DNA of 64,000 nt from an archaeon (GCA_018656555.1 JABHZQ010000023.1:2875-66874), one strand, 5' to 3'. Shown: positions 19,048-63,597, numbered from the stretch's first letter. Notes: generated by a model from the sequence alone, not told the origin. Numbers and translations are program-made.

Positions 19048-19082
19048 TATTTCTATAATTCTCTTTAAGTATTTAAGCTTTT

Positions 19083-19202: not shown

Positions 19203-19405
19203 AGCCTGTACTTTGCATTTACAATAGATAAATCATCCATTCTAAGTACAAAATGGAACTAATCTAATGTTCATTAATATTAACAACTTGTTAATTTAAT
19301 GGAACAACTATTATGTACTAGATGTTAAAGAATCCTTAATTTTTAATACATAATAAACTAAATGTTCATCTCAGATGAATATTGCCTTTAGAATAACATG
19401 AAAAT

Positions 19406-19858: not shown

Positions 19859-19902
19859 AAATTGAGCGAACTCCCCCTACAGTAATCTATAATTTTCTTC
19901 TA

Positions 19903-32812: not shown

Positions 32813-33238
32813 CTAAGGGTTGCAATACCATAATTTTACCTTCTTTCCAGAGATTGTAGCATCGTCTGGTATTATGTCTCCAATACACTCTTCTGTGTAA
32901 AGAGTATTGTCAATATAAAACATATAAACTCCTTCTTCCCAACCATAAGTATTTGTTATCAAAGCCATCTGTTCTTGCATCAACTCACAAGCATCTTGAC
33001 CACACTCAAAACCACCACTCATACAAGTCTTAATTACATCATCCATTTGAGTACTTTCACATACTGTTTGTAGACGGATAACGTCGAGCATGTTGGATAC
33101 TTCTAAATGCATTTCAGTCTCTTGTATTGAACTTGTACCTGAATCATCAGGCATAAATTTGATATAAAAAATTATTCCCATTATGATTAATAAGATAATA
33201 ACCATAAATCCAAGTATTTCCATTTGACCTTTTTTCAT
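32813..33238 (-). CDS. Pilin-like protein with an archaeal class III (prepilin-type) signal peptide
   Basis: MKKGQ|MEILGFMVIILLIIMGIIFYI, a KGQ motif followed by a hydrophobic helix. Confidence 0.5.
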   Translation of the reverse strand: MKKGQMEILGFMVIILLIIMGIIFYIKFMPDDSGTSSIQETEMHLEVSNMLDVIRLQTVCESTQMDDVIKTCMSGGFECGQDACELMQEQMALITNTYGWEEGVYMFYIDNTLYTEECIGDIIPDDATISGKKVKLWYCNP

Positions 33239-33750
33239 TGCAGTATCTCGATTGTTAGTTTACCCAATTGATATTCTCCTGTTGTAGGTATATACAAAGT
33301 TACAGGAGTTGAAATGGGTATTGAAGTTGTATAATCATCTTGCGGCTCATAAAACATATACTCATTACAATTAGGATAGTTATCTAAAGTACAGTTTGTT
33401 TCCACTATACCTTCAGGCAAAAGTTGCGTGAAATAGACCTTTTGTGAGCAAATAGTGCTAAAATACGACCCATATTCTCTTCCTGGATCAAAAACCATCA
33501 ACTTTGCAGTGTCTATACAATTCTCTTGTTTATTGTTAATACTACACTGTACTTCAGGCATATTAGCAATATAAGATAAAAGAACATAGTTAGACACAAT
33601 ACAAACATCTTCTATTGTTTCTTGTCCTGCTGAATAAGACACCTTAAAATAAAACACAAGCCCCAATACTAATATTATCATAAATACCATAACTACCACA
33701 ATAGTCTCCATCATTCCAACTTGAGCCTTAGAAAATCTCAGGACACTCAC
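33235..33750 (-). CDS. Pilin-like protein with a class III signal peptide (weaker match)
   Basis: MSVLRFSKAQVGMMETIVVVMVFMIILVLGLVF. Confidence 0.4.
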   Translation of the reverse strand: MSVLRFSKAQVGMMETIVVVMVFMIILVLGLVFYFKVSYSAGQETIEDVCIVSNYVLLSYIANMPEVQCSINNKQENCIDTAKLMVFDPGREYGSYFSTICSQKVYFTQLLPEGIVETNCTLDNYPNCNEYMFYEPQDDYTTSIPISTPVTLYIPTTGEYQLGKLTIEILQ

Positions 33751-34729
33751 CTCCCAAGTTCTTATTTGCAGCTTCTATTGTATTTACATAGCTTTGATAG
33801 GTCATAGCTGTATCTGTATTACCAATATAACCCTTATAATTATTCAAACTAGTTTTTACTGAAGTATAATCACAATTAGGTAGCCTAGTAGATATAAATT
33901 TAGACTTTTCATAATACAAATTAGTTATTGAATTTAACTTAGACAAAGCTAATTCCATATTATAATCATATTCATCTTTATTTTCTGAAATAAAAGCACC
34001 AACTAACATCTCCTTAGTCAAATATATAGAAGACCCATCTACAAATTCTATTTCACCATAATTAAATTCTTCTTCATCAGTATAAGTTACTTCAATTATA
34101 TCATAATTTTCAAAATAAGATTCTGGATTAATATTTGATTCTGTTAAAAATATAAATCTAACCTTTTCATAATTTTTTGTCAAGGTTGCAAGAGAGTCAA
34201 GATTAGAACTTAAATCTGATTCATCTATCAATTGATAATCAAAGTTTGAAGGCATTGACGCATATCCTTCAGTTAGTTCTTCTGCAAACTCTTCATTAGT
34301 TGGATTCTTTTGATTGTAAACTAAAACATAATAAGTTCTTTTGTCGTCGAAGTAAAAGAAATTTACAGTTTTATAAGGGAGTTCAAATGTTTTTGTTGCT
34401 ATATATATTTCTCTCCCTTCAATCTTAAGAGGTGAAAATATCACCTTATTCATCTGTTTCCCAATACTTAAACTCTCAGGTGTAATAACTCCTTTACTAA
34501 TATACAATTCTAAATCCCTACTGTAATCTAATGTGTCTTGTGCATTTAATGAAACAGAAAGAGCAGTTAACTCATCACTAATTGCATTAGTTAGTTCTGC
34601 ATCTGATTTACTTCCAGATACAGTCATATACTTATACGCAAAGCCAATAAAAAATATAAGAAACATGGAACCAATTATGATTCCAAAGATATACTTAAAT
34701 GCCTCACCTGTTTGTCCTTTACGTTTCAT
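33728..34729 (-). CDS. Pilin-like protein (333 aa) with a class III signal peptide
   Basis: MKRKGQ|TGEAFKYIFGIIIGSMFLIFFIGF. Confidence 0.5.
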   Translation of the reverse strand: MKRKGQTGEAFKYIFGIIIGSMFLIFFIGFAYKYMTVSGSKSDAELTNAISDELTALSVSLNAQDTLDYSRDLELYISKGVITPESLSIGKQMNKVIFSPLKIEGREIYIATKTFELPYKTVNFFYFDDKRTYYVLVYNQKNPTNEEFAEELTEGYASMPSNFDYQLIDESDLSSNLDSLATLTKNYEKVRFIFLTESNINPESYFENYDIIEVTYTDEEEFNYGEIEFVDGSSIYLTKEMLVGAFISENKDEYDYNMELALSKLNSITNLYYEKSKFISTRLPNCDYTSVKTSLNNYKGYIGNTDTAMTYQSYVNTIEAANKNLGGECPEIF

Positions 34730-35216
34730 AGTAAGTTATAGAAACTGAATCTACCTCATTCCTTAACAATCCCTGTTTTCCATTAGTTATACACTGAGGA
34801 TTACCCTCTACAGGTATTAATTTTTCAACACTAAAGTAATTTGTTTCATACTCTGGTGGATAAAGATAAACATTTCTTGAAGAAACAACCACTGCTTCTA
34901 TATACTCATTCATTTCTGCAGGACAGGGTAACCCATTATCCAAAACACAATTATAATTCTCATTCCCATTGTAAAAACAAACATATTCAACCAATCCTGG
35001 CAGATCCATTGTATATTTTTTCGTTGCACCTTCATCATACTTAGAAAAAGTTTCTACTTCATTCTGCATATCAGTTACTTTATCTGCTAGTTGAGCATAA
35101 TCAGCTTGTGTATTAAGATCTAAAACTATTTTTATACCCCAAAAAAGCACTAATGCTCCTATGATCAATGCAAAGATTAGTACTAATGGTAAACCCATAA
35201 CTTGTCCTTTTTTCAT
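34719..35216 (-). CDS. Pilin-like protein with a class III signal peptide
   Basis: MKKGQ|VMGLPLVLIFALIIGALVLFWGI. Confidence 0.5.
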   Translation of the reverse strand: MKKGQVMGLPLVLIFALIIGALVLFWGIKIVLDLNTQADYAQLADKVTDMQNEVETFSKYDEGATKKYTMDLPGLVEYVCFYNGNENYNCVLDNGLPCPAEMNEYIEAVVVSSRNVYLYPPEYETNYFSVEKLIPVEGNPQCITNGKQGLLRNEVDSVSITYYET

Positions 35217-35219
35217 TTT

Positions 35220-38200
35220 TTAACTCCACAAAGATATATCTAATAAGTAAGATCCTTGATTTCCATAAATATCTTCACATATAATATAATACATAGGGAA
35301 TCCCAAACTTGGAGAATGTGTTGGTGTTTGTGTTCCCATTGGTGTACCATCACCAAATTCAAACTCTTCTGAAGCAAACTCACAAGTCGCATCCTCATTA
35401 AACTCTATTACAAGTTCATAGAATACTTCATCTACATATATAGATGTTATTTGAGGTATTGAATCATCATACTCTACAGTAATCTCACTTGATGTTGCAT
35501 TTTGATTACCTGCCACATCCTGACAAGTCACATAAAGAGTATAATCTCCTGTAAATAAATTAAGTTCTTGGGAATGTGATGTTGAATTTGTATCTAAAAA
35601 CTCAGTCATTGCACTATACTCATTAGTATCAGTACTAAACGCACAAGTTGAAACTCCATTATCAGCTCCAGCACTGGTTTTTACTTCTATTTCTAAGGTT
35701 GTATTATACACCTCTCCTTCTGGAGACATAGAGTCAATAACTAATGTATCCTCTGATGACTTTGTTGAATACTTATAGCTCTCCTCATTTGTATTTCCAG
35801 TACTATCTTGACACCTAAAGTAGAAATAATTAATTTCATCTGAACTTATTCCAGTTAGTGTTCCAGTACAAGGATAGGTTCCATAATATATTGATGATGC
35901 TTGGAATCCACTAGTTGTACAAATCATTTCATTGTCCATTATAGTATAATCAGTATCCTCTGTACTCCACTTACAAGTTGCTGGTTCATCAGTGTAAACA
36001 GATAACATTGTTTCATTCACACCATAAGCAACATATAATCCCTCATCTAGTGAAGTGAAAACTACTGTAGGAGGAGTTAGATCTGGAGTTGTATCAACTT
36101 GGAACCTTACAAAGTAATCTCTTTCATTTGCATTACCATTGTAATCAATACACTTTACATAAATAGTGTAAATTCCTTCTGTTAAAGCAATAACTTCTTC
36201 ATCTGTTACTTCATCTCCTAAAGATAATAGTAAAGCATGATTGTATAAGTATAAATCAGTACCAAAATCATAATTCATCTCTTCATAAGCTATTCCTGGT
36301 TCTGTTGCATATTTACACAATGCTGGTTCATCTGTTTCCAAACCAATTTGAACAGGTGTAAATGCAGGTATTAATTCATTTATTTCTAATCCTGGATTAC
36401 CTTCCTCATATGTTTCCCTAAAAGTATAAGCCTCTGAAAATAATTCTGTATTTGGAGTTACATCTGGACTGTTTACATCATTTGCATATACAGATACACA
36501 AGATTCATTTCCAGATCCTTCATTGATTACTTGGCAAGAAGCACCTAATGCTCTACATCTATATTCTGAACAAGGTTTCTCATCAGTATTACATAATTCA
36601 CAATCATCTCCTCCAGAAGGTGGTTGCCATCTTCCACAAGTTGCTTCATAATTTACAGTAGTTTCATTATCAAAACCATATTCTACAAATAAGTAAACTG
36701 TAAATGCTGTTGTCAAAACATTTGAAACTCTTGTAACAGTTTTTGCTCCTTGAGCTTCTTGCATAGTTGTTCCAAGTTCTGCTTGATAAGGATCATCTGA
36801 ATTAGCCATAGCAGCAGTCTCCTTTGCACTTACCTTTCCAACCGGCCTTCCAATCAAACCAACAATAGGCATTGCTCCCTGTAAAAAACATCCAGCTCCA
36901 GATGCAAAATCTAAATTAGATTGTTTTTGTGCAGATGTACCAATAGCACCAGCCAAAGTATCACACTCACCTTGTTGATCAGAACTTAAATTTGCATAAT
37001 TACCACAATCTTTTTCATAACTTGTTAAATCTGTGGTGGTTGTTGCATCTCCAGTTATAGAATCTATTCCAGTAACTCTTCCACCAAGTGCACCTAAAGC
37101 ACTACCTCCTCCTCCAACCAAACCACCAAGTGATTGTAAAATATTATTTGCATTTGCACTATCCATACCTTGCATTATTTGGGCTTCTTTTGCTTTTGAA
37201 CAGGCAACTGTTTGAGATACCGCCCCAACACTTCCAGAAATTATTGCTCCAACAAAAGCTGGATTTGAATACCAATATCTTGAATTTGCTCCATAGTATT
37301 TAATCTCTCCACCCCCCACATTAATCAAATAATCCCAATCTCCAATATCTTTTGATTCCAACTCATCATAATCAAAGAAAAATACTTCATCAAATGCATT
37401 ACTTGTAAATCCATCATAAGATGCCACACCATTCCAATTATAATAAGCACCACAATCTCCTTGTGCCTTACATAAAATATTTTGCTTTACAAACCAATCC
37501 CTCTCAGTACATCCCATAGGAGTTTCCATAACTAAATTCCAATTATCAGCATTAGTCTTTCCACCAAAAATCTTTTTCCATCCACCAATTCTCCAAGTTG
37601 CTTCACAAGTTCTTGTTGCTTCTGAACATACTTCATCTGTTGAAGCTGTACTTGCATCTCCATCATCTGCCCAGAACTGTTGACCCGGTGGAACTTGAGG
37701 TACACATACCCCTCCAACTGTTGTTTCCACTTCTAGATCTTCAGCCTCTTGTTGAGCACTAGTCAATGGAATATTAGATCCTCTATCCACTCTCTCTACT
37801 TCTCCTTCCAACCAAAAACAATCTCTATAATCTTCATCCTCACAACACTCTCTTACTGCTTCTTCATTAGAAACAGAATTAGCAATAATTCCTGAAGTAT
37901 CACCTACTTCTTCTTCAACATAATTACAATCATAACAATCTTCCCATCTATTATCTCTACAAGCTGCTTCTATATAATCTCCAGAATCAGATAAATGTAA
38001 TGCTTCAAGAGTTCCAAAGATCTCTGCAGATAGAACACCATGAATACAAATATCCTCTCTAAAATCAGTACAAGGTTCAGGAACCTCTTCTCCATTAATA
38101 CACAACTGCCTAAAATGTCTTGAACCAACAGTATCCTGTGCTTCTCCAGTAAAGGAATCATACAAACACCAAGACTCTCCATTTAATTTATCTCCACCAG

Positions 38201-39110
38201 CACCAGGAGAAACCTCATCATCATAAGTATCATAACAATTTAAATCAATACAAGTAAAATCTCCCTTTTCCATAACATGATCTTTATCTGTTCCACAAAC
38301 ACTTCCAGCTGCATAATCACAATTTCCACAATTTTTATCATAAGGTCCTGTAATTGTACAAGACTCTTCTTCATCTTTTATGTAACCACTATTATAACTT
38401 GAAGTTATATCTGAAGAATAGATATTTTCTCTATTCCCACAAGAATCATGCCAATAAACCTTTCCTTCGTAACAACCAGTATGTTGTTGTTTTGCACAGT
38501 CTGCTGAAAGTAAATCATTTGAACATAACATTCCAGCATTAAAACCTTCTTCTGTAAAGTTTGATCCAACAGATGGTTCATTAGATGCAGTAGGACAATT
38601 GTCTCTTGTTGTAAAAGTATAATCTTCTCCATTAGCACAACATCCCCATTCAGAATTTTTAACAGAATTAAGACAAGCATATTCAGTTGCATAGGATTCA
38701 TCAAAATCCATATTAACCTCTTCATACTGTGATGCTATCTCTTTACATTTAACTTCAGTAACAAAGAAAGCTTGATCTGCAATCACACAACAACCTTGAG
38801 TACATTGATCTATTTCACAATTCATTGAATCCACCCAAGCACTACCTTCTTCTACTTCACACCTTGATTTTGCAGTATTTTTAAAACAAGAACCAGAATC
38901 AGAAGAATAACAACAACCAATTTGACAATAAGAAGTTTGTTCACAAGTTGCATATGCTGATTGATAATTTAGATTACATTCTGATTCATCTGCGTACCTA
39001 CAATACTCGCCATCATTAGTAACCTCACAACATGCATTTGAAGCTGAGACAAAATTAATTAGAAGAATTATTACTATACTAAAAATTAATATTATATTAC
39101 CTCTTTTCAA
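35220..39110 (-). CDS. Giant cysteine-rich secreted surface protein, paralog D (1296 aa)
   Basis: N-terminus MKRG|NIILIFSIVIILLI is signal or class-III-like. Shares modules with the other three giants: CCE…C…YC.GCC repeats; a GESWCLYDS…RH(F/Y)R…C core; DCGAYYNWNG; CELCN. C-terminal repeated ~100-aa modules carry a C.D..GN.N motif. Confidence 0.7.
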   Translation of the reverse strand: MKRGNIILIFSIVIILLINFVSASNACCEVTNDGEYCRYADESECNLNYQSAYATCEQTSYCQIGCCYSSDSGSCFKNTAKSRCEVEEGSAWVDSMNCEIDQCTQGCCVIADQAFFVTEVKCKEIASQYEEVNMDFDESYATEYACLNSVKNSEWGCCANGEDYTFTTRDNCPTASNEPSVGSNFTEEGFNAGMLCSNDLLSADCAKQQHTGCYEGKVYWHDSCGNRENIYSSDITSSYNSGYIKDEEESCTITGPYDKNCGNCDYAAGSVCGTDKDHVMEKGDFTCIDLNCYDTYDDEVSPGAGGDKLNGESWCLYDSFTGEAQDTVGSRHFRQLCINGEEVPEPCTDFREDICIHGVLSAEIFGTLEALHLSDSGDYIEAACRDNRWEDCYDCNYVEEEVGDTSGIIANSVSNEEAVRECCEDEDYRDCFWLEGEVERVDRGSNIPLTSAQQEAEDLEVETTVGGVCVPQVPPGQQFWADDGDASTASTDEVCSEATRTCEATWRIGGWKKIFGGKTNADNWNLVMETPMGCTERDWFVKQNILCKAQGDCGAYYNWNGVASYDGFTSNAFDEVFFFDYDELESKDIGDWDYLINVGGGEIKYYGANSRYWYSNPAFVGAIISGSVGAVSQTVACSKAKEAQIMQGMDSANANNILQSLGGLVGGGGSALGALGGRVTGIDSITGDATTTTDLTSYEKDCGNYANLSSDQQGECDTLAGAIGTSAQKQSNLDFASGAGCFLQGAMPIVGLIGRPVGKVSAKETAAMANSDDPYQAELGTTMQEAQGAKTVTRVSNVLTTAFTVYLFVEYGFDNETTVNYEATCGRWQPPSGGDDCELCNTDEKPCSEYRCRALGASCQVINEGSGNESCVSVYANDVNSPDVTPNTELFSEAYTFRETYEEGNPGLEINELIPAFTPVQIGLETDEPALCKYATEPGIAYEEMNYDFGTDLYLYNHALLLSLGDEVTDEEVIALTEGIYTIYVKCIDYNGNANERDYFVRFQVDTTPDLTPPTVVFTSLDEGLYVAYGVNETMLSVYTDEPATCKWSTEDTDYTIMDNEMICTTSGFQASSIYYGTYPCTGTLTGISSDEINYFYFRCQDSTGNTNEESYKYSTKSSEDTLVIDSMSPEGEVYNTTLEIEVKTSAGADNGVSTCAFSTDTNEYSAMTEFLDTNSTSHSQELNLFTGDYTLYVTCQDVAGNQNATSSEITVEYDDSIPQITSIYVDEVFYELVIEFNEDATCEFASEEFEFGDGTPMGTQTPTHSPSLGFPMYYIICEDIYGNQGSYLLDISLWS

Positions 39111-39158
39111 ACTAATTAATTAAATCTTTTTAATATTTATAAAGATTTTCTTTTAGAA

Positions 39159-39926: not shown

Positions 39927-39958
39927 TTTTTATAGTTTTTTAGTATATAAATGTTTTG

Positions 39959-43378: not shown

Positions 43379-43395
43379 TATAATATCAAATAATT

Positions 43396-43408
43396 TAATT
43401 ATTTAAAA
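43396..43408 (-). promoter_or_regulatory. Archaeal TATA-like box (TTTAAATA), about 20-30 bp upstream of the paralog C start. The same sequence recurs upstream of paralog B at ~46917-46929.
   Basis: The minus-strand reading of 43379-43410 is atttttaaataattaaattatttgatattata followed by ATG. The same 32 bp precede the gene at 46900. Confidence 0.35.
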
Positions 43409-46400
43409 ATCTTCTCCTTGCTCTTCTTGCTCTACTTCAATAGTATAAGAACCTTGATTCCCAAACACATCCTCACAAATTATATAATAAACTGATTCAG
43501 TTGCTGCAAAATAATAAGTATTTTCATCTAGTGTGCTTGTAGAAAATCCTGAACCATATTCAAATTCAAGTACATCATACTCACAGTAAGAAGTTTCATC
43601 TAATGAAAAATAAAGATTTACTCCTGATTGATATACTTCTGTTAATTCTGGTGCACTCATATCAATATCAACAATAAATGAAATAGTTGTTGAGTTTTGA
43701 TTACCTGCAACATCTTGACATAAAATATTATAATCATACTGACCTGCAGAAAGATCTTCTAATAATTGTTCGTGATAAGATGCATTACTTGCAAAAAATT
43801 CAATTCCATCATAATAACATACAGACTTTCCAGCCTCAGCACCAACAGAAGTCTCAACTTGTAATGCAACATCATTATAGTATATTGTTCCTTCTGGTGA
43901 AGTTCTATCAATATTCAAAGGCTCTGTTCCTTTTAACACAAAAGGATAAGTTTGTGTATTTGTATTATTATTATAATCCATACAAGAGAAGTAATATTGA
44001 TTATCTCCAATATTTGTAACATTCAATGCAGCCAAACAAGTATTAGCTGAATATACACTTTGAGAATAAACATTCCCAGAGCATAATGTATAATAATTCA
44101 TTAATTCATAATCTTGATCATAAAAAGACCATTTACACTGTGCAGGTTCATTAATATAAACATTTACAAGAGCATAATCTGTATTTGCAGCAATATAAGT
44201 TCCAGACGCAACATCAGTTGTTTCAATTACAGGAGTTTGTACATCCTCTCCAGGTTCAGTTTGTATTTTAAATTGATAAGGTGCTACAGTTGGATTGCCT
44301 GCTGCATCCTGACATTGGATATAATAAGTAAACTCTTCATCAGGTGTTAAGATTCTTGTTTGATTATGAGTTCTATCATAATAAGAGAATGGGAAAAATT
44401 CTGTCATCTCTTCATAAATAGGTAAAGGTTCTGTTGAAATCTTACATTGAGCTAATTCATTAGTCTCAATACCAAAATGAAATTGAGTATAAGGTGCTAT
44501 TCCAGTAACTGAAACCCCATTATTACCTTCTTGAGTATAGGAATAGCCATGTTCAATAAATAACTCCTCATTCAAAGTCATTTCTGGTGCATCAACTTCA
44601 TCTATAACATTATTAAAACATTTTTCTCTATCTGTTCCTAAATTTTCTGAAATAAACCCACATCCAACTCCTAAAGATTTACATTTATACTCAGTACATT
44701 CAAATCCAGGCAAAACCTTTCCAGAACCATCATCTATTGCTAACCCTCCTTGTGAAATAGGCAAATCACATAATTCACATAAATTTCCACCAGGCAAAGG
44801 CACCCAAGGTTCACAATTAGAAGAAACAATTACTGTTTGAGTATCACCTCCAGTAGAAAACAAATAGATTAATGCTGCTATTGATATTACTACTATAGCT
44901 ACAATCCATCCAACCACTGGAACAGAACTACTTGCTCCAGCAACAACTCCCAAAGCAGCAACAACTGCAACTGCAGCTTCAATTGCAGCTGTTATAACTA
45001 CAGTCACAATAATTCCTACAACTGCTCCCACCCCTAGAGCTACAAGCGCTGCTGTTAATCCATCTGATTGATAATCAGACAACCAATCTGCAGCTACTCC
45101 AGTTTCTAATTGATCAGCCATGGCTTTAGAAATACCAAGCAACCCACCATGAACACCATAAGCATTTTTTAAAGTATAAGAAGGATTATCATATTCAAAA
45201 TAACCTAACCTTTCACCCATTAAAACTTCTTCATTTGGTGCATCATAGACATTGTCATCTACACCAGTATACCAACTAGCCCTATACATCGAATCATAAA
45301 ATACACACCGATCATTATCAATTGGATCTCCCCCCTCTGCACAAACATTTTCAGATCCTTCTGTTGGGCACATATCATCAACCCCATAATCTTCTTCATG
45401 CCACCTATAATGACAATCCCAATTATAAGCAATCATAGTTTTATCTTGACCAGTCTTAAGATAATCTTGAGCTCTAGTCATATAAAAACCATCATTAGAA
45501 TACTGTTCTAAAATATTAAAATTAGCACCACAATCCCCTCCACTAGAACACCACTTTGAAGCATTAACCATCCAAACATCTGCTAAACAATCACAATTTT
45601 CAACACATCTCCATTGATTTGCTGCCCAATTTTTTTTACTAAAAGTTACTTGACACTCTAAACTTTTAGCAGTACAAGTAGTTAAAGCAGAATCCCCTGC
45701 CCAAAATTGATTTCCCTTTGGTACAGTAGAAATATTAGTATTCAATGGACTATCATAAATGTTATTATCTACACAAGCAGCCCCAGTTGCTTGTCCTGCC
45801 TCCCCTTGAAGATTTGTTGGATCATAAGGAGATTGAATACAAATCTCCTCTCTATAATCCCTACAAGTATCTATATATTCTTCACCAAAATAACAATAAG
45901 ATCTATAATGTTGAGAACCAGGCCTATCAAAATAAGCACCAGCAGGAGACTCATATAAACACCAAGACTCACCATGATATCTTTGCCCCCCCAACCTTCC
46001 ATCATGCTTATTTATTTTTTTCTCTCCTAAATTATCTAAATCTCCAGGAGCATTAATATTATAATGATAAATTCCATCAAAAGTATAAGTTCCATCTTCT
46101 CTTTTGTTTAAACAATCTGTAGTTTCACAAACTGCATTACCTCCACTATCATGACCACACCAAGTTCCAGCCTGGTAATCACAATCTTCAGCAACAGTCT
46201 CTTGATTACCACAAGTATCAAACCAATAAACATCATCCATCACACATTCTTTTCTATCCTTTGATTCACAATTACAAATATCAATCTCACTACAAAGAGT
46301 TTCCTTATAGAAACCATAACCAGTATCTATATCAATATCTGGTTCATCACACATCTCTCTTGTATCATATATACAAGATTCATCAGTTACACAACATCCT

Positions 46401-46900
46401 TGATCAGATGCAGTACACTGACTAGTACATGCATATTCATAATCCACTACAACAAACTCAGGATCTATTTCTGGATAATCATCACCAATATAATCACAAT
46501 TAGCTTCTGTTGTATAAGAACAAATAGAATTTGCAATATTACAACAATTCTTTCCACATTCAGGAATATCACACTCTGCATTATCATGCCAAGTATATCC
46601 TTCTGTACTTTCACAAACATATTTTGGTACATTCTTAGAACATTTTCCAGAATCAGAGATACAACAACCACCTTTACAATAAGTAGTTAGTTCACAAGAA
46701 GTTTGCGAAGAAAGATGAGCAGTATCACACTGGTCTTGAGTAGTATACAAACAATTTAACCCAGATAAAGTTTCCTCACAACAATACATAGGTTGTTCTT
46801 CTTCAGCTGTAACCAACTCAATATTATAAACTGTAAAAATAGAAGCTATAATTATAAGAGTCATAAATAATGCTTTTGTTTTGAGAAAATCACCTCTCAT
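43403..46900 (-). CDS. Giant cysteine-rich secreted surface protein, paralog B (1165 aa) with an internal hydrophobic multi-helix segment
   Basis: Same motif set as paralog C. Internal ~68-aa hydrophobic segment (LTAALVALGVGAVVGIIVTVVITAAIEAAVAVVAALGVVAGASSSVPVVGWIVAIVVISIAALIYLF). Confidence 0.7.
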   Translation of the reverse strand: MRGDFLKTKALFMTLIIIASIFTVYNIELVTAEEEQPMYCCEETLSGLNCLYTTQDQCDTAHLSSQTSCELTTYCKGGCCISDSGKCSKNVPKYVCESTEGYTWHDNAECDIPECGKNCCNIANSICSYTTEANCDYIGDDYPEIDPEFVVVDYEYACTSQCTASDQGCCVTDESCIYDTREMCDEPDIDIDTGYGFYKETLCSEIDICNCESKDRKECVMDDVYWFDTCGNQETVAEDCDYQAGTWCGHDSGGNAVCETTDCLNKREDGTYTFDGIYHYNINAPGDLDNLGEKKINKHDGRLGGQRYHGESWCLYESPAGAYFDRPGSQHYRSYCYFGEEYIDTCRDYREEICIQSPYDPTNLQGEAGQATGAACVDNNIYDSPLNTNISTVPKGNQFWAGDSALTTCTAKSLECQVTFSKKNWAANQWRCVENCDCLADVWMVNASKWCSSGGDCGANFNILEQYSNDGFYMTRAQDYLKTGQDKTMIAYNWDCHYRWHEEDYGVDDMCPTEGSENVCAEGGDPIDNDRCVFYDSMYRASWYTGVDDNVYDAPNEEVLMGERLGYFEYDNPSYTLKNAYGVHGGLLGISKAMADQLETGVAADWLSDYQSDGLTAALVALGVGAVVGIIVTVVITAAIEAAVAVVAALGVVAGASSSVPVVGWIVAIVVISIAALIYLFSTGGDTQTVIVSSNCEPWVPLPGGNLCELCDLPISQGGLAIDDGSGKVLPGFECTEYKCKSLGVGCGFISENLGTDREKCFNNVIDEVDAPEMTLNEELFIEHGYSYTQEGNNGVSVTGIAPYTQFHFGIETNELAQCKISTEPLPIYEEMTEFFPFSYYDRTHNQTRILTPDEEFTYYIQCQDAAGNPTVAPYQFKIQTEPGEDVQTPVIETTDVASGTYIAANTDYALVNVYINEPAQCKWSFYDQDYELMNYYTLCSGNVYSQSVYSANTCLAALNVTNIGDNQYYFSCMDYNNNTNTQTYPFVLKGTEPLNIDRTSPEGTIYYNDVALQVETSVGAEAGKSVCYYDGIEFFASNASYHEQLLEDLSAGQYDYNILCQDVAGNQNSTTISFIVDIDMSAPELTEVYQSGVNLYFSLDETSYCEYDVLEFEYGSGFSTSTLDENTYYFAATESVYYIICEDVFGNQGSYTIEVEQEEQGEDF

Positions 46901-46938
46901 TATAATATCAAATAATTTAATTATTTAAAAAACTAACT

Positions 46939-49900
46939 CTATAGAATATAATCTAAACTTACTATCAAAGGAGAATTTTGGTTACCAAATTCATCTTCAC
47001 ATATAACATAATACTCACTAATTCCTGGAGATACTGAAAAAGTATGATCTGTTGTTTCTGATCCAGTTGTTTCAAAACCAGAACCAAAAGTAAAAGATGA
47101 AACCTCATATTCACAAGTTGTTTCCTCATTTGTGATTATATAAACCATATTACTCAAATAAAATAAACTATCTACTTCTGGAGGATATTCATCAACATCC
47201 ATTGTAAAAGAAATTTGTGTTTCATTTCTATTTCCTGCAACATCTTCACAATAAATATCATAAACATAATCTCCTTCAGTCAATGTTTGTGATTGTACCC
47301 AAAGAGTATCTGAATCTTGTGATTCTGACATTTGATCATAAGTATATTGATTTGATTGTTTATAGTAACACACAGACTTTCCAGCCTCAGCACCTGCTTG
47401 AGTTCTTACTTGTAAATCTATCTCTTTGTAAGACACTATTCCTTCTGGTGATGTTTGTGTAATCAACAAAGGATCTGATTTTGTTACAGTCCATGGTGAA
47501 GATGAAGACATTACATTACCATATTGATCTTGACATAGGAAATAAAAATTATTAGGGCCATCAGTTATTGAAATTTCATCTCTACAATAATAATCTCCCT
47601 GAATAATATTTGCTGATGGAGAAATACAAGTATCCATATCATTTTCCATTAAATCAAAATTATCACTCTCTAAACTACTATACTTACAAGTTGCAGGAAC
47701 ATCAGTATAAGTCTGTAAGGTTATTGTTTCTGCAGTTGAAGGAGCATATTGCTCACTTGCAGGATCAAAATGGATATATGTTCCAGGGTAAGTAGTTGGA
47801 TCCTGTTCTGAAGCTTTCAACCCTATCTCAAAAATTCCATCATCAGTTTTTCCACAAATATCCTCACACCACACATAAAAACTTTTTTCTTCTCCATTAG
47901 AAAAAACATAACTAATATTATGCTTAAACTCATAAGCATCAACAGCCCAATCTGGAACCTCATAAACTCCAGGATTCATAAATAAGTTATATCTCTCTTC
48001 TGGATCAGTATAAGCTGCTGCCAATTGTCCAAGAGTAGAAACTCCCTCATGTTGATCTAAAATTTCTTGTACTCTCCAATCCTCAACAAATTTACACCTA
48101 GAGACAATGTTTGTTTCAACTCCAAAAGAAACCTTATAACCTGGAGGTATATTAGTTGCATCATAACCAGGATTATTAGTTGTTCTTTTCTGAATTTCAA
48201 TTGTTAATGGTGAAGTTGCAGTTGAATCAATTAAAGCATCATCATATTGAGAAATCTGTACAGACTCATTCAAGATACATTCCTCAGAAACACAAGAAGG
48301 ATGATTAATAGATCCTCTATTCCCTTCAATAAACTTACAATAAGATCCTAAACTTGTACATTTTGAAGCAGTACATGCTGCACCATCTATCCTCTTTCCA
48401 TCCTTACTAAACCACAATCCCCCTTCTTCAGAAGGCAAGTCACACAAATGGCAATTATCTCCATTATCTTGAGGTTCCCAAGCTTCACACCAATGTACAG
48501 ATCTTGCAGCCTTTTTATTATCACCTTCATGAATATTATCTTCCCACTCATACTCATAAAAAGTAAGTGGATTTGAATACTGACTAGCATAATCAAAACC
48601 AAAAGAAGTTGCTCTTAAAGATCTTGTATTCATAACCCAAGGTTTGATACTCTTCAGCTGATTATATAGTAATTCCTCTTTTGAAACTTTATAGGCATCT
48701 TCAGTACAGACATAACTAGTTTCTATTGCATCAGTATAATAATCCAGATAGTCGTCATCATAATCTGAACTTGACGAATAATCATAAATATAATCATACA
48801 TACAACCATCTATAGCACCCACTTCTTGTTTTGCTGAATGAACTTCACCTCCAAGATATGATTTTCCATCCTGCTCATAAGGCCTTTGTATATCATTTGA
48901 AGTTACAAGACCATAAGCTGCCATATTCTCTTTAGCAGAACTCCCTTCAACATAATTCAATCCCAAATTCTTAGATAATCTATCTACTCCACCAGTAGTA
49001 TAACAATTATATGCACTATACATATACAATCTACTCAAAGGTAAAAAAGAAGGAAACATAAAATCAGATAAAAAATTATCATTCACAGTATTTATTTCAA
49101 GATCCCCCTCATTCTTCAAAATAGGAACATAATATCTTCTAATATTAGCTGCTGAAGCTTTCATACAAGCTGAAGCACCAGGAATTCTACTAGAATGATA
49201 TAAAGAATAAAAAGAAGTTCCTTGAAGATATGATTCTGCTTGAGAACAATGATCATCTTCTAAGTCAAAACATTCACCCAAACCCAGACTAGCATCACTA
49301 TTCTCTCCTGCAATTTCTTCTTGGTTATAAGTTATATCAAATGAATCTGGCTGTCCTTCCTCTCCCAATATATTCAAATTAATCCCACAATCTCCTCTTG
49401 AACTACAATAATCCATTGAAGTTGCTATAAACTCAGATCTTAAACCAATTGCATTAGTAATTAACTCATAACCTTCTTCATCACTCCCCCCTCCTTGATC
49501 CCAAAAACCATAATCAATTGTAAAGGTAGCAGCATGACAATAATCATCAGCAGTGGTTGTCCAATCCTCTCTATACGTTCCCAAAGGGACTGTAGAAACT
49601 CCATACAAATATGTCCAATCTTCAGTAGATTTAATCGGCTGATTTATCTCACCATAAAACTCACCAAACCTATTATCATAGTTTATAGACCATTCAGACC
49701 AACTATCTTTTGCATCATTATAATCTGGTGTTGTAGAACAACTTCCAGAAGTAGAACACCATTTTCCAGAATGGTAAGGATAAGTATAATATTCTTCAAA
49801 ATTATTAGAAATACATTTGGCATCAGGATTCCCATTTTCATCAAAACTCATTGCACAATATTCTTCTCTTAAATCTCCACAATTTTCCCAAACCTCTTCT

Positions 49901-50919
49901 CCATCTACACAATAAGCCCTATAATGTTGTGTTCCAATTCTATCTCTAAAACTTCCAGTAGGTCCCTCATATACACACCAAGAATCTAAATTATTTCTTG
50001 TTTTACCCAATTCAAAAATTTCAAAATCTCCTTTTTTATTATTGTAAACAGTATAAGAATTTAACATCTCAAAATCAGCAGAATCTTGAAGTTCTTGAGT
50101 TATAGTATCTCCAACTTTAAATTCAAAAGTATCACTACAAGCAGTTGATCTACATGTAGCTTCCAAATCCTCATTAACATAACAAGCTTGACTAGGATAA
50201 CTACAAGAGTCACCAGTTAACATTATATCTCCACAAGTATTAGTCTCATAAAATTCATGATCTATTGTACAATCTTCTTGAGTGTAAACACAATTACAAG
50301 AAGCAGTATAAGTTCCTGATTCTAATTCTTTTTGAATATCAGCACAACTCTTTCCTTCATAATAACCATATCCGGTAGCTGTGTCTGTAGAAAGAGAACC
50401 TCTTTCCATCAAACATTCATCCCCAGTTAAATAAGTACATCCAGTTTCAGAAACACAACAACCCATTGCATCAAGATTATTATACAAATTACAAGCTTCC
50501 TCAGTTGTTACACCATTATTCCAAACTGGAGTCTCTTCATAAGCATCATAAGTTGCATAACAATTAGGTTCTGTAGTAAATGAATATTCATTTCCAAATT
50601 GGCAACAACCTTTTGAACAAGCAGTAGTAGTACATTCTTCATCACTAGACCAAGTACCTCCTGCTTGAGTACAAGTATAATCAGGAACACCTTTAGAACA
50701 AACACCATCAGCAGAAACACAACAACCAATTGCACAAACAGTAGTTTCATTACAAGGAGAAGAATAAAATTCATCTGGAGCAGAACTACAAGCACCATCA
50801 TCAGTATAAACACAATACATACCTGTTGTCTTTTCCTTACAACAACCATCAACTGCCATAACAAAAGGAACTATAAGTAAAATAAATACTAGAATAATCA
50901 ACCCCTTTTCTAATTTCAT
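46939..50919 (-). CDS. Giant cysteine-rich secreted surface protein, paralog A (1326 aa)
   Basis: Signal peptide MKLEKGLIILVFILLIVPFVMA. GCC Cys modules, a DSWCVYEGPTGSFRDRIGTQHYRAYC core, CHLCDLP, and the C-terminal C.D..GN.N modules (YCEDVAGNRNETQISF; YYVICEDEFGNQNS). Confidence 0.7.
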   Translation of the reverse strand: MKLEKGLIILVFILLIVPFVMAVDGCCKEKTTGMYCVYTDDGACSSAPDEFYSSPCNETTVCAIGCCVSADGVCSKGVPDYTCTQAGGTWSSDEECTTTACSKGCCQFGNEYSFTTEPNCYATYDAYEETPVWNNGVTTEEACNLYNNLDAMGCCVSETGCTYLTGDECLMERGSLSTDTATGYGYYEGKSCADIQKELESGTYTASCNCVYTQEDCTIDHEFYETNTCGDIMLTGDSCSYPSQACYVNEDLEATCRSTACSDTFEFKVGDTITQELQDSADFEMLNSYTVYNNKKGDFEIFELGKTRNNLDSWCVYEGPTGSFRDRIGTQHYRAYCVDGEEVWENCGDLREEYCAMSFDENGNPDAKCISNNFEEYYTYPYHSGKWCSTSGSCSTTPDYNDAKDSWSEWSINYDNRFGEFYGEINQPIKSTEDWTYLYGVSTVPLGTYREDWTTTADDYCHAATFTIDYGFWDQGGGSDEEGYELITNAIGLRSEFIATSMDYCSSRGDCGINLNILGEEGQPDSFDITYNQEEIAGENSDASLGLGECFDLEDDHCSQAESYLQGTSFYSLYHSSRIPGASACMKASAANIRRYYVPILKNEGDLEINTVNDNFLSDFMFPSFLPLSRLYMYSAYNCYTTGGVDRLSKNLGLNYVEGSSAKENMAAYGLVTSNDIQRPYEQDGKSYLGGEVHSAKQEVGAIDGCMYDYIYDYSSSSDYDDDYLDYYTDAIETSYVCTEDAYKVSKEELLYNQLKSIKPWVMNTRSLRATSFGFDYASQYSNPLTFYEYEWEDNIHEGDNKKAARSVHWCEAWEPQDNGDNCHLCDLPSEEGGLWFSKDGKRIDGAACTASKCTSLGSYCKFIEGNRGSINHPSCVSEECILNESVQISQYDDALIDSTATSPLTIEIQKRTTNNPGYDATNIPPGYKVSFGVETNIVSRCKFVEDWRVQEILDQHEGVSTLGQLAAAYTDPEERYNLFMNPGVYEVPDWAVDAYEFKHNISYVFSNGEEKSFYVWCEDICGKTDDGIFEIGLKASEQDPTTYPGTYIHFDPASEQYAPSTAETITLQTYTDVPATCKYSSLESDNFDLMENDMDTCISPSANIIQGDYYCRDEISITDGPNNFYFLCQDQYGNVMSSSSPWTVTKSDPLLITQTSPEGIVSYKEIDLQVRTQAGAEAGKSVCYYKQSNQYTYDQMSESQDSDTLWVQSQTLTEGDYVYDIYCEDVAGNRNETQISFTMDVDEYPPEVDSLFYLSNMVYIITNEETTCEYEVSSFTFGSGFETTGSETTDHTFSVSPGISEYYVICEDEFGNQNSPLIVSLDYIL

Positions 50920-57319: not shown

Positions 57320-57320
57320 A

Positions 57321-59957: not shown

Positions 59958-59989
59958 ATTTCTAGGATTTTTTCCTTGTTTTTTAAAGA

Positions 59990-62012: not shown

Positions 62013-62044
62013 TTTAATTATATTCTTATTTGATTTTAAAAACT

Positions 62045-63562: not shown

Positions 63563-63597
63563 ACCCCAAGAAATAGTTTATTTATTTAAAAAGATAA

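What the first reader, a model, noticed from the sequence alone, without database searches (positions are those of the whole stretch)
32813..50919. An ~18 kb single-strand array of four giant Cys-rich paralogs interleaved with five class-III-signal pilin-like genes: a candidate novel surface-filament or adhesion system
Nine consecutive minus-strand genes, tightly spaced or overlapping, run in the order giant A (1326 aa), giant B (1165 aa), giant C (1139 aa), pilin-like (255 aa), giant D (1296 aa), then pilin-like proteins of 165, 333, 171 and 141 aa.

The four giants share a unique set of modules: repeated CCE..C…YC.GCC cysteine knots; a GESWCLYESP…RPG(S/T)QHYR.YC core; ENC.CL.D.WMVNASKWCS..GDCGANFNILE; CE.W.PP.GG..CELCD; EC(T)EYKCKSLG; and C-terminal ~100-aa Ig-like repeats carrying a C.D..GN.N motif. 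None of these corresponds to a protein family I know.

The small proteins begin with (K/R)(K)GQ followed by a hydrophobic helix. That is the archaeal prepilin-peptidase (EppA/PibD-type) class III signal; compare the Methanococcus EppA substrates that have Q at +1. Two of the giants (MKRG|NIIL…, MKLEKG|LIIL…) could themselves be class III substrates.

An operon that builds a type-IV-like filament decorated with, or made from, 130-150 kDa Cys-rich adhesins has not, to my knowledge, been described. In a putative episymbiotic or small-genome archaeon it would be a prime candidate for the host-attachment apparatus.
Basis: partly seen in the sequence, partly recalled or inferred. Interest (0 to 1): 0.9.

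Follow-up and report, generated by a model that had tools for sequence, protein, structure and literature searches.

The report
Conserved DPANN pilin-like/giant surface-protein cassette
This is a real gene cluster, conserved across Woesearchaeota/Pacearchaeota-type DPANN archaea, that couples five pilin-like proteins and several huge cysteine-rich surface proteins to the S-layer gene; all of its protein families are unannotated, and it is a strong candidate for the surface-attachment apparatus of these tiny archaea.

Summary
All nine minus-strand ORFs exist at the stated coordinates. The four giants are collinear paralogs with about 5% Cys. The five small proteins all start with [KR][GA]|Q followed by a roughly 22-residue hydrophobic helix.

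The array is part of a larger cassette: [p255]-giant-[p255]-giant-p165-p333-p171-p141-S-layer gene-d192-d200. This order is conserved in about 80 loci from genomes labelled Woesearchaeota, Pacearchaeota or Nanoarchaeota. The giant family has 2,327 50%-identity cluster representatives at E<=1e-30, and none carries an annotation. The class III-type motif is conserved in every small family, and the five families resemble each other only over the N-terminal 30-80 residues, as pilins do.

The cassette itself holds no major pilin, active ATPase or prepilin peptidase. A conserved Walker-A-less FlaI homolog and a FlaJ-like gene lie upstream, but only in this sub-lineage.

Best reading (about 0.5): a minor-pilin-type type-IV-filament module that works with membrane-anchored giant adhesins at the S-layer. 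It is a new variant of a known kind (archaeal TFF loci with large adhesins and S-layer-like proteins), built from new protein families.

The parts
46939..50919 (-). Giant A (1326 aa): Sec signal, three N-terminal Cys knots, shared core motifs, no strong central hairpin, C-terminal Ig-like repeats. This A-type paralog is present only in the window's wider sub-lineage.
43403..46900 (-). Giant B (1165 aa): recent paralog of C (57% identical, first 35 aa identical, mosaic identity of 20-92% along the length). Central hydrophobic hairpin at about aa 612-687.
39959..43378 (-). Giant C (1139 aa): Sec signal; four six-Cys knots of about 40 aa (aa 43-215); novel beta-rich core (aa 220-560); hydrophobic hairpin (aa ~616-671); Cys module (aa 680-745); four Ig-like domains (aa ~770-1139).
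39159..39926 (-). p255: class III-signal protein (MIMDKRG|QATVF...). It is the best conserved member of the cassette, lies next to a giant in related loci, and occurs 1-5 times per locus.
35220..39110 (-). Giant D (1296 aa, TTG start): the D-type ancestral giant. Its middle region is Gly/Ala-rich and only moderately hydrophobic. Weak Big_13 Ig hit. The orthologue in the closest relative carries a LysM insert.
34719..35216 (-). p165: class III-signal pilin-like protein (MKKG|QVMGLPL...). The top PDB match of the family profile is the type IV pilin PilE1.
33728..34729 (-). p333: class III-type N-terminus (MKRKG|QTGEAF...) with a variable +1 residue across the family. Its N-terminal 80 aa are related to p165.
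33235..33750 (-). p171: class III-type N-terminus (..SKA|QVGMMET..). [KR]G[QD] followed by a conserved Glu is kept in orthologues, which supports the long GTG-start ORF.
32813..33238 (-). p141: class III-signal pilin-like protein (MKKG|QMEILG...). The QxEIxG motif has Q at +1 in 28/28 orthologues.
30190..32505 (-). S-layer protein (771 aa; PF05124 S_layer_C), with its own TATA-like box, a GGAGGTG ribosome-binding site and an acidic C-terminal tail. In 10 of 12 distinct loci with enough sequence it follows p141 on the same strand.
28941..30114 (-). d192 (29536-30114) and d200 (28941-29543): two small proteins with an N-terminal membrane anchor and no class III motif. They are conserved downstream of the S-layer gene in several distant loci.
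52229..53425 (-). FlaJ/TadC-like platform protein (398 aa, 4 predicted TM segments). Conserved next to the cassette only in the window's sub-lineage.
   Evidence: NCBIfam ArlJ 1.8e-13; matches both T2SSF genes of L090; synteny
53422..54573 (-). FlaI/GspE-like pseudo-ATPase (383 aa). The N-domain is conserved; the Walker A motif and much of the ATPase core are lost. Seven orthologues (53-99% identical) all lack GK[ST].

Best explanation
**What it is.** This is a chromosomal, lineage-wide cell-envelope gene cluster of Woesearchaeales/Pacearchaeales-type DPANN archaea. It has three components.

(a) Two ancestral giant surface proteins, expanded to four here. They are Sec-exported and rich in disulfides. 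Most are held in the membrane by a central hydrophobic hairpin. As a result, both a novel N-terminal half (four six-Cys knots plus a core of unknown fold) and a C-terminal stalk of four Ig-like domains face outward.

(b) Five distinct families of type-IV-pilin-like proteins with a [KR][GA]|Q class III signal. The last four are translationally coupled.

(c) The S-layer protein gene and two small membrane-anchored proteins immediately downstream.

**How it most likely works.** The five pilin-like proteins are cut by a prepilin-type peptidase encoded elsewhere. They then assemble as a roughly equimolar minor-pilin-type complex. That complex would be either a short pseudopilus or the priming/tip complex of a pilus whose major pilin and motor lie elsewhere. 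Together with the giants it would form an adhesive structure that crosses or is embedded in the S-layer. The giants would be the ligand-binding parts.

**Shown:** gene content, signal types, domain and fold classes, paralogy, conservation, synteny and distribution.

**Inferred:** signal processing, assembly into a filament-like complex, physical association with the giants and the S-layer, and an adhesion function.
For: **Class III-type N-termini.** The [KR][GA]|Q motif plus about 22 hydrophobic residues is conserved across orthologues of all five families: p255 80/86 with Q at +1, p141 28/28, p171 22 Q and 7 D of 29, p165 23/32. In the window the motif is confined to the cassette.

**Pilin-like pattern.** The five families resemble each other only over the N-terminal 30-80 residues (hhalign). 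The top PDB hit of the p165 profile is the type IV pilin PilE1 (E=0.0034). Pilins also top the list for the p171 profile, though not significantly.

**A bona fide TFF locus in a relative.** A DPANN MAG has small proteins with the same KRGQ-type N-termini next to a T2SSE ATPase (GGTASGKTT) and two T2SSF platform genes.

**Coupled quartet.** p165-p333-p171-p141 is complete in 23/26 loci and in the same order in 22. Median junctions are -4, -17 and -4 nt, which fits a stoichiometric complex.

**Co-occurrence.** Giants always co-occur with the pilin-like genes in about 80 loci. The S-layer gene follows in 10/12 loci with room.

**Giants look like exported adhesins.** They have Sec signals, 62-66 Cys each and four Ig-like domains similar to those of adhesins and the GhpA grappling hook. 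A LysM module is inserted in a close orthologue.

**Link to TFF machinery in this sub-lineage.** A FlaJ-like gene and a FlaI-derived gene lie 1.3 kb upstream on the same strand, and the same layout occurs in a relative.

**Precedent.** Archaeal clade-1/System-1 TFF loci have at least five minor pilins, large adhesins, S-layer-like proteins and stand-alone major pilins, and System 1 occurs in DPANN (PMC4858521; bioRxiv 10.64898/2026.04.22.720090). FlaI/J/K genes are annotated in Woesearchaeota (PMC8407392).
Against: - No major pilin, active ATPase or prepilin peptidase lies in the cassette, in the window, or within 10 kb beyond either end.
- The adjacent FlaI homolog lacks a Walker A motif. The FlaI/FlaJ-like pair is next to the cassette only in this sub-lineage.
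- None of the five small families matches a curated pilin family: Pfam Pilin_N or Class_IIIsignal, or NCBIfam.
- The central hydrophobic hairpin of most giants suggests they stay in the membrane rather than ride on a pilus tip.
- No expression, proteomic or imaging data for this cassette were found in the searched literature.
Confidence: 0.5

Rival explanations
1. S-layer anchoring and pseudoperiplasm scaffold. The giants are membrane-anchored pillars that tether or space the S-layer, doing the job that SlaB does in Sulfolobales. The hairpin sits in the membrane and the Ig stalk reaches outward. The pilin-like proteins form a bindosome-like, non-filamentous assembly that helps insert or organise them. 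On this reading the primary function is envelope architecture, not adhesion.
For: - The S-layer gene is immediately downstream on the same strand in 10/12 loci.
- The S-layer protein has no TM anchor of its own.
- A central hairpin is present in 37/38 B/C-type and 40/62 D-type giants.
- Four Ig-like domains would form a stalk.
- The cassette sits among housekeeping genes (RpoL, TFIIS, PCNA) in distant genomes, as expected for a core structural function.
- There is a weak N-terminal hit of p171 to bindosome BasB (E=0.0025).
- The window is an envelope and glycosylation island that includes AglB.
Against: - Rapid divergence, paralog expansion (2 to 4 giants), mosaic B/C identity and insertion of a LysM module fit an exposed, ligand-binding, variable protein better than a fixed structural anchor.
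- A- and D-type giants in this window lack a strong hairpin.
- The S-layer gene has its own promoter-like element and a long leader, so it is adjacent rather than demonstrably co-transcribed.
Confidence: 0.25
2. The small proteins are ordinary N-terminally anchored (signal-anchor) membrane proteins that are never processed or polymerised. On this reading the cluster is simply a set of co-located envelope proteins with no relation to type IV filaments.
For: - There is no significant match to any curated pilin family.
- There is no peptidase or active ATPase nearby.
- d192 and d200 in the same cluster have plain N-terminal anchors.
- The +1 residue of p333 is variable.
Against: - A plain anchor does not need an invariant [KR][GA]-Q junction, yet Q at +1 is kept in 80/86 (p255) and 28/28 (p141) orthologues across order-level divergence.
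- The same junction occurs on small proteins next to an intact T2SSE/T2SSF machinery in a related MAG.
- Five families sharing only this N-terminal segment is the pilin pattern.
Confidence: 0.15
3. Host-membrane-interacting or fusogen-like device. The giants' Gly/Ala-rich hydrophobic middle segment, flanked by disulfide-rich ectodomains, inserts into the host membrane to open a cytoplasmic bridge. The pilin-like complex provides the push.
For: - The central Gly/Ala-rich hydrophobic segments are modelled with low confidence.
- Both flanking halves are predicted to be extracellular.
- DPANN episymbionts form membrane contacts or attachment organelles whose protein composition is unknown (PMC11420986).
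Against: - The segment is long enough for an ordinary two-helix membrane hairpin.
- Whether these organisms have hosts at all is unknown.
Confidence: 0.05
4. Cargo of a virus or mobile element, for example spike or receptor-binding proteins of an integrated element.
For: - A tyrosine integrase (24661-25917) and a VirB2/TrbC-like pilin (22571-22906) lie 7-10 kb away.
- Toxin-antitoxin pairs are inserted inside the cassette in one relative.
Against: - Gene order is conserved next to housekeeping genes and the S-layer gene across about 80 species-level genomes.
- There are no PHROG matches, apart from one weak hit (E=0.0009) of giant A to a family of unknown function.
- There are no viral structural matches.
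- Base composition is continuous with the flanks.
Confidence: 0.02

Closest known systems
Archaeal TFF 'System 1' / clade-1 type IV pilus loci (the Epd pilus of Methanococcus maripaludis and related loci in Methanobacteriales, Thermococcales and some DPANN)
   Same: - At least five class III-signal 'minor pilin' genes per locus.
- Q at +1 of the signal.
- One or two large accessory/adhesin proteins encoded among the pilins.
- S-layer-like proteins associated with the locus.
- Major pilins encoded elsewhere as stand-alone genes (PMC4858521; bioRxiv 10.64898/2026.04.22.720090).
   Different: - The cassette has no ATPase, no pair of platform genes, no EppA peptidase and no FleN/MinD.
- The large proteins are not DUF2341/PilY-like. 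They belong to a new Cys-rich family with a central hairpin.
- None of the five small families matches Pfam or NCBIfam pilin models.
- Linkage to the bona fide S-layer gene is nearly universal.
Bacterial minor-pilin operons with a large tip adhesin (Pseudomonas fimU-pilVWXY1E; T2SS GspH-I-J-K)
   Same: - Four to five different, co-translated pilin-like proteins with no major pilin in the operon.
- A protein of about 1,100-1,300 aa encoded among them.
- One of the four small proteins is much larger than the others (p333, compare GspK at about 330 aa). This last comparison rests on my own knowledge and was not tested.
   Different: - No sequence or fold evidence of homology.
- PilY1 has a beta-propeller and a vWA domain and no membrane hairpin. 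The giants have Ig-like repeats, Cys knots and usually a hairpin.
Sulfolobus bindosome assembly system (BasABC pilin-like proteins plus BasEF)
   Same: Small class III-signal proteins thought to organise large surface proteins within or under the S-layer without building a long filament. There is a weak N-terminal match of p171 to BasB (E=0.0025).
   Different: The match is far below the family cut-off (17.8 versus 230 bits). There is no BasE/F pair in the cassette, and the large proteins are not class III-signal sugar-binding proteins.
Ig-repeat surface adhesins and hooks (GhpA grappling hook of Aureispira, RTX adhesins, arCOG05616 Ig-rich proteins of TFF subsystem 4G)
   Same: A C-terminal run of four Ig-like domains. 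Foldseek E-values of about 1e-11 to 1e-10 against GhpA fragments and RTX adhesin repeats. Ig-rich giant proteins are already noted in archaeal TFF loci.
   Different: Only about 370 of roughly 1,140 residues are Ig-like. The N-terminal 560 residues have no structural neighbour, and the central hairpin is unlike secreted adhesins.
Woese/Pacearchaeota-specific protein-family 'Module 98' (Castelle et al. 2021, PMC8204110)
   Same: A set of 51 families widespread in Woesearchaeota and Pacearchaeota and mostly absent elsewhere. Most are of unknown function, and many are predicted to be membrane-bound or extracellular. The cassette families have that same distribution.
   Different: Whether the cassette families belong to Module 98 was not checked. 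The paper describes neither the operon nor the class III signals; it highlights a different large protein, which has a lytic transglycosylase domain.

Membership tests
Type IV pilin-like (class III signal peptide) proteins: the five small proteins | Short positively charged N-terminus, [KR]-[GA] cleavage junction, then about 20 hydrophobic residues | tested here: met
   All five window proteins have it. It is conserved in 28-86 distinct orthologues per family, with Q at +1 dominant. In the window the motif is restricted to the cassette.
Type IV pilin-like (class III signal peptide) proteins: the five small proteins | Conserved N-terminal segment with unrelated C-terminal globular parts among co-encoded paralogous families | tested here: met
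   Local hhalign matches between the families cover only residues ~1-30 to ~1-82 (probabilities 20-98%).
Type IV pilin-like (class III signal peptide) proteins: the five small proteins | Sequence match to a curated pilin family (Pfam Pilin_N PF07790, Class_IIIsignal PF04021, NCBIfam pilin models) | tested here: not met
   No hit for the window proteins. Only 2/32 p141 members touch Pilin_N at E=0.036, and no p165 members do.
Type IV pilin-like (class III signal peptide) proteins: the five small proteins | Pilin fold: a long N-terminal alpha-helix packed against a beta-sheet domain | not tested
   Both structure-prediction jobs went to the giant. Only indirect evidence exists: the top PDB hit of the p165 profile is the type IV pilin PilE1 (8pfb_G, E=0.0034) over the helix region.
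Type IV pilin-like (class III signal peptide) proteins: the five small proteins | A cognate class III signal peptidase in the same genome | not testable with these tools
   None is present in the window or within 10 kb beyond it, and the rest of the genome could not be read. The literature reports FlaK in Woesearchaeota genomes in general (PMC8407392).
Archaeal TFF system (System 1 / clade 1): the locus as a whole | Secretion ATPase with intact Walker motifs in the locus | tested here: not met
   The 383-aa FlaI/GspE homolog has no GK[ST] and lacks the region that aligns to residues ~304-443 of an intact relative. Seven orthologues are the same. There is no ATPase beside the cassette in other genomes.
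Archaeal TFF system (System 1 / clade 1): the locus as a whole | Platform protein(s) FlaJ/TadC (two genes in System 1) | tested here: inconclusive
   One 398-aa FlaJ-like gene is present (NCBIfam ArlJ 1.8e-13, far below the cut-off; no Pfam T2SSF hit). It matches both T2SSF genes of L090. It lies next to the cassette only in the window's sub-lineage.
Archaeal TFF system (System 1 / clade 1): the locus as a whole | At least five class III-signal minor pilins plus large accessory proteins | tested here: met
   Five families plus 2-4 giants, conserved in order.
PilY1 / DUF2341-type pilus adhesins: the giants | DUF2341, vWA or beta-propeller domain | tested here: not met
   [KR][GA] is adjacent in only 1/7 A-type, 19/60 D-type and 23/37 B/C-type giants. 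The listed N-termini end in a small-x-small site (VSA, VNA, VRA) 2-8 residues before the first CC.
Archaeal S-layer protein family (PF05124): the giants | Match to S_layer_C or S_layer_N | tested here: not met
   The giants give no hit. The neighbouring 771-aa protein does (2.6e-11, 44 bits versus a 23.9 cut-off).
Bacterial Ig-like / cadherin-like adhesin repeats: the giants' C-terminus | Tandem Ig-like beta-sandwich domains | tested here: met
   The AF2 model has four beta-sandwich units at aa ~770-1139 with pLDDT 85-95. Foldseek probability is 1.00 against Ig tandems. Pfam Big_13 reaches its cut-off only in D (28.3 versus 27).
Fusexin / class II fusogens: the giants | Three-domain beta-rich ectodomain fold | tested here: not met

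The most novel reading that the evidence does not exclude
The cassette encodes the long-sought host- or surface-attachment apparatus of Woesearchaeales/Pacearchaeales. On this reading, a five-pilin complex carries or drives giant disulfide-knotted proteins through the S-layer. The giants' central Gly/Ala-rich hydrophobic hairpin would then have one of two roles. It could mimic pilin alpha1 helices, so that the giant plugs into the filament core. Or it could insert into the partner cell's membrane. Either would be a way of coupling adhesins to a type IV filament that has not been seen in bacteria or other archaea.
Probability: 0.15. Interest if true: 0.85.

Novelty: new variant of a known kind. 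Interest (0 to 1): 0.62.

Why it matters
Woesearchaeota and Pacearchaeota are among the most abundant and diverse uncultured archaea. How they build their envelope, and how they attach to hosts or surfaces, is unknown at the molecular level.

This work defines a 10-12-gene cassette made entirely of unannotated protein families. The giant family alone has more than 2,300 50%-identity clusters. The cassette was found in order and orientation in about 80 loci from genomes labelled Woesearchaeota, Pacearchaeota or Nanoarchaeota, and it is physically linked to the S-layer gene.

That gives specific, testable candidates for the surface-attachment machinery: five pilin-like proteins, giant Cys-rich proteins with a fold not present in the PDB, and a conserved ATPase-dead FlaI homolog. 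It also extends the known repertoire of archaeal type IV filament accessory modules into DPANN.

Tried and rejected
**Sequence searches on the giants.** Pfam, NCBIfam and PHROGs scans, and a PDB profile search, gave only borderline Ig-like hits.

**Fold searches.**
- Foldseek with the full-length giant C model was swamped by Ig tandems and said nothing about the N-terminal half. I therefore remodelled aa 36-600 separately.
- BFVD gave nothing.
- The afdb50 library was unavailable.

**Rejected ideas.**
- The fusogen idea was tested and not supported.
- The idea that the giants are class III substrates was rejected after comparing orthologue N-termini.

**PDB profile searches for the small families.** p255, p333 and p141 gave nothing meaningful.

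**Other negative or uninformative results.**
- A search for extra class III-type small ORFs (a candidate major pilin) in the window found none.
- Extending 10 kb beyond both window ends found only glycosylation and housekeeping genes.
- N-glycosylation sequon counts were uninformative.
- Literature searches for a prior description of this cassette, or of Cys-rich giants in Woese/Pacearchaeota, found none.

**Untested lead.** The DPANN 'NEQ255' dark-matter cluster, described as lying next to S-layer-like proteins (PMC6393860), could be related.

Full report

All four giants contain the quoted motif modules in the same order. They are paralogs: B/C are 57% identical, and the other pairs are 26-34% identical over two long blocks. 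Each has 62-66 cysteines (about 5%). An alignment of 62 homologues of giant C has 59 invariant columns, most of them Cys.

Each of the five small proteins starts with a short basic stretch, then [KR][GA], then Q, then a strongly hydrophobic segment. A motif scan of all six frames of the 64-kb window finds this arrangement only in the cassette, apart from internal TM segments of unrelated proteins.

**2. Anatomy of the giants.** AlphaFold2 with a 62-sequence alignment gave a usable model of giant C (mean pLDDT 79.3). A better model was obtained for residues 36-600 alone (pLDDT 82.5, with the first 260 residues above 90). The layout of giant C is:

| Residues | Feature |
|---|---|
| 1-35 | Signal peptide |
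| ~43-215 | Four small beta-hairpin(+helix) modules of about 40 aa, each with six Cys |
| ~220-560 | Beta-rich and alpha/beta core carrying the GESWC...GSQHYR..C and GDCGA motifs |
| ~616-671 | Strongly hydrophobic two-helix segment, modelled with low confidence |
| 680-745 | Cys module (CESWIPPSGGDFCELCD...CTEYKCKSLG) |
| ~770-1139 | Four Ig-like beta-sandwiches |

The giants' N-termini are classical Sec signals. They have a basic n-region and a 15-20-residue h-region. In the orthologue N-termini listed, a small-x-small site (VSA, VNA, VRA) lies 2-8 residues before the first CC. [KR][GA] is adjacent to the h-region in only 1/7 A-type, 19/60 D-type and 23/37 B/C-type giants. The suggestion that two giants are class III substrates is therefore not supported.

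The central hydrophobic hairpin (35 aa or longer) is present in 37/38 full-length B/C-type giants, 40/62 D-type and 1/7 A-type. With a cleaved Sec signal, this places both large halves outside the cell. That fits the Cys-rich composition on both sides of the hairpin.

B and C share identical first 35 residues and show mosaic identity of 20-92% in 40-aa windows. The least conserved stretch lies around the hairpin. This indicates recent duplication or gene conversion together with rapid divergence. The D-type orthologue of the closest relative carries a LysM module inside the variable middle region (30.9 bits against a 20.9 cut-off). That is one direct hint of glycan or cell-wall binding.

**3. 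The five small proteins.** I called ORFs in about 85 related loci and classified them with jackhmmer. This gave 30-90 distinct orthologues per family. The [KR][GA] junction followed by a hydrophobic stretch of about 22 residues is conserved in all five families:

| Family | +1 residue and nearby conserved features |
|---|---|
| p255 | Q in 80/86 |
| p141 | Q in 28/28, within a QxEIxG motif |
| p171 | 22 Q and 7 D of 29, followed by a conserved Glu |
| p165 | Q in 23/32 |
| p333 | Variable |

A plain membrane anchor would not need such a junction.

Local profile-profile comparison shows that the five families resemble each other only over the first 30-80 residues. This is the pattern of co-encoded pilins. 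In PDB profile searches, p165 ranks the type IV pilin PilE1 first (8pfb_G, E=0.0034) and PilA third. For p171 the list is led by a geopilin, with a type IV PilA also present, but not significantly. p255, p333 and p141 find nothing meaningful.

None of the families matches Pfam Pilin_N or Class_IIIsignal, or NCBIfam pilin models. They are pilin-like by signal and organisation, but they are not members of any curated pilin family.

**4. Conservation and distribution.** All 78 loci kept carried Woesearchaeota, Pacearchaeota, Nanoarchaeota/Nanoarchaeia or unclassified-archaeon labels, apart from one labelled 'bacterium'. An exhaustive HMM search of 1.84 billion cluster representatives found 2,327 proteins at E<=1e-30. 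Every hit that carried a source name was called 'hypothetical protein'.

Gene order is strikingly constant: [p255]-giant-[p255]-giant-p165-p333-p171-p141-S-layer protein-d192-d200.

- The quartet p165-p333-p171-p141 is complete in 23 of 26 loci with room and in the same order in 22. Median junctions are -4, -17 and -4 nt. This implies translational coupling and probably a stoichiometric complex.
- The S-layer gene (PF05124) follows p141 on the same strand in 10 of 12 distinct loci with enough downstream sequence, and also in L004 and L005.
- The ancestral state is two giants, a B/C type and a D type, with p255 between them. The window's wider sub-lineage adds an A type, and the window itself has B and C where those relatives have a single B/C-type giant.
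- In Pacearchaeota-labelled loci p255 occurs up to five times, and the second giant of the array is split into two ORFs.
- In distant genomes the cassette abuts RpoL, TFIIS and PCNA. In the window's organism the same housekeeping genes lie just beyond the window start. The cassette is therefore core chromosome, not a mobile element.

**5. Surroundings in the window.** The S-layer gene 30190-32505 has its own TATA-like box and a GGAGGTG ribosome-binding site. A TATA-like TTTAAAAT lies about 30 nt upstream of giant A.

About 1.3 kb upstream of giant A, on the same strand, lie two further genes:

- A FlaJ/TadC-like membrane protein (52229-53425; NCBIfam ArlJ 1.8e-13; homologous to both T2SSF genes of a bona fide TFF locus).
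- A FlaI/GspE-like protein (53422-54573). Its N-domain matches the Archaeoglobus GspE structure 2oap (1e-14). It has no Walker A motif and lacks the segment equivalent to residues ~304-443 of an intact relative.

Seven orthologues of the FlaI-like protein (53-99% identical) all lack GK[ST]. The next-best homologues, at 25-26% identity, are intact ATPases with GGTASGKTT. The FlaI-like protein is therefore a conserved pseudo-ATPase, not a decaying pseudogene. The same layout (STT3, then pseudo-ATPase and FlaJ-like, then giants) recurs in a relative. Elsewhere the cassette has no such neighbours.

The rest of the window, and 10 kb beyond each end, consists of glycosylation genes (AglB/STT3, GT2/GT4, radical-SAM, PMT_2) and housekeeping genes. 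There is no prepilin peptidase and no active ATPase.

An intact TFF locus in a DPANN MAG (L090) has small proteins with the same KRGQ-type N-termini next to T2SSE and two T2SSF genes. This shows that such N-termini are associated with TFF machinery in a related DPANN genome.

**6. Most likely mechanism (confidence about 0.5).**

- Shown: five conserved class III-type pilin-like families, four of them translationally coupled; exported, disulfide-rich and mostly hairpin-anchored giants with Ig stalks; obligatory co-occurrence; linkage to the S-layer gene.
- Inferred: a prepilin peptidase encoded elsewhere cleaves the five proteins before Q+1. They form a minor-pilin-type complex, either a short pseudopilus or the priming/tip complex of a pilus whose major pilin, ATPase and platform are encoded elsewhere. 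Stand-alone major pilins are the rule in archaeal clade-1 systems (PMC4858521). This complex cooperates with the giants to present adhesive domains through or within the S-layer. p255, which lies next to giants in the gene order, is the obvious candidate adaptor.

**7. Rivals.**

- (i) An S-layer anchoring or pseudoperiplasmic scaffold with bindosome-like pilin proteins (0.25). For: the hairpin, the Ig stalk, the anchorless S-layer protein and the core-genome context. Against: the paralog expansion, the mosaic divergence and the LysM insertion.
- (ii) Plain signal-anchored membrane proteins with no TFF connection (0.15). Against: the conserved junction and the L090 precedent.
- (iii) A fusogen-like host-membrane device (0.05). 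There is no structural support.
- (iv) Viral or mobile cargo (0.02). Contradicted by the synteny and by the absence of viral family or fold matches.

**8. Comparison with what is known.** Functionally, the closest systems are these:

- Archaeal TFF System 1 / clade 1 loci (the Epd pilus type). They combine at least five class III minor pilins with Q at +1, large adhesins, S-layer-like proteins and stand-alone major pilins, and they are reported in some DPANN.
- Bacterial minor-pilin operons with PilY1.
- The Sulfolobus bindosome system.

Membership in any of these fails on tested defining features. There is no intact ATPase, no peptidase in the locus, no DUF2341, vWA or propeller domain in the giants, and no match of the small proteins to curated pilin families.

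Castelle et al. (PMC8204110) reported a module of 51 Woese/Pacearchaeota-specific families of unknown function. The cassette families share that distribution, although I did not check whether they belong to the module. I found no paper that describes this operon, its class III signals or the giants.

**9. Verdict.** Interest 0.62. It gives concrete molecular candidates for the envelope and attachment apparatus of Woese/Pacearchaeota, but the function remains inferred.

Noticed in passing
window 53422-54573 (-) and 52229-53425 (-): A conserved ATPase-dead FlaI/GspE homolog sits next to a half-size FlaJ/TadC-like platform gene. The FlaI homolog has an intact N-domain, no Walker A motif and about 140 residues of the ATPase core missing. 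Seven orthologues (53-99% identical) have the same defects. Such a pseudo-ATPase/platform pair may regulate or scaffold a type IV filament machine in trans.
   Followed up: partly
window 22571-22906 (-), 24661-25917 (-), 20590-21831 (-): A 111-aa VirB2/TrbC-type T4SS pilin (PF18895, 3.2e-16) lies near a tyrosine integrase (PF00589) and a 413-aa secreted protein of unknown family. This may be a remnant of an integrated conjugative-type element in a DPANN genome.
   Followed up: no
window 26363-28394 (-): Three tandem, overlapping paralogous genes (245, 237 and 226 aa) share conserved 'VGCPT...LSLEQDVIPP...CKHLI' motifs. From the sequences they look like glycosyltransferases, but they were not scanned against any family library. 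They lie between the integrase and the cassette.
   Followed up: no
window 1-20000 and 54662-64000; L088, L089: The cassette sits in a large envelope and glycosylation island: AglB/STT3 (54662-57319), many GT2/GT4 genes, PMT_2-type membrane glycosyltransferases, several radical-SAM/SPASM and B12-radical-SAM genes, and an LPG_synthase_TM flippase-like gene.
   Followed up: partly
window 43403-46900 versus 39959-43378: Giants B and C have identical first 35 residues and alternating blocks of 20-92% identity. This suggests recent duplication with gene conversion and fast divergence around the central hairpin, as seen in variable surface proteins.
   Followed up: partly
L004:15576-19793 (closest relative, JBDRRK010000002.1): The D-type giant of the closest relative carries a LysM domain (aa 776-820, above the Pfam cut-off) inserted in the variable middle region. 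This hints at binding of peptidoglycan or chitin-type glycans.
   Followed up: partly
Pacearchaeota-labelled loci, e.g. L047, L063, L066, L069-L072, L077-L079, L082, L083: The second giant of the array is split into two ORFs (about 500-600 aa and about 430-930 aa). p255-family genes occur up to five times per locus.
   Followed up: no
L005/L006 (contig Ga0247727_10000003), inside the cassette: Toxin-antitoxin pairs (RHH/PIN, ParE/YafQ-like) and a PBP-family gene are inserted between cassette genes without disrupting their order.
   Followed up: no
window 28941-30114 (-): d192 and d200 are two small proteins with an N-terminal anchor and no known family. They are conserved directly downstream of the S-layer gene in distant genomes (L014, L031, L055, L061). 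They are possibly S-layer assembly or anchoring factors.
   Followed up: partly
window 50993-52281 (+): Two plus-strand membrane-protein genes separate the FlaJ-like gene from giant A. One has a weak Ion_trans voltage-sensor-like hit (E=3.3e-4). A pair of opposite-strand genes occupies the same position in a relative.
   Followed up: no
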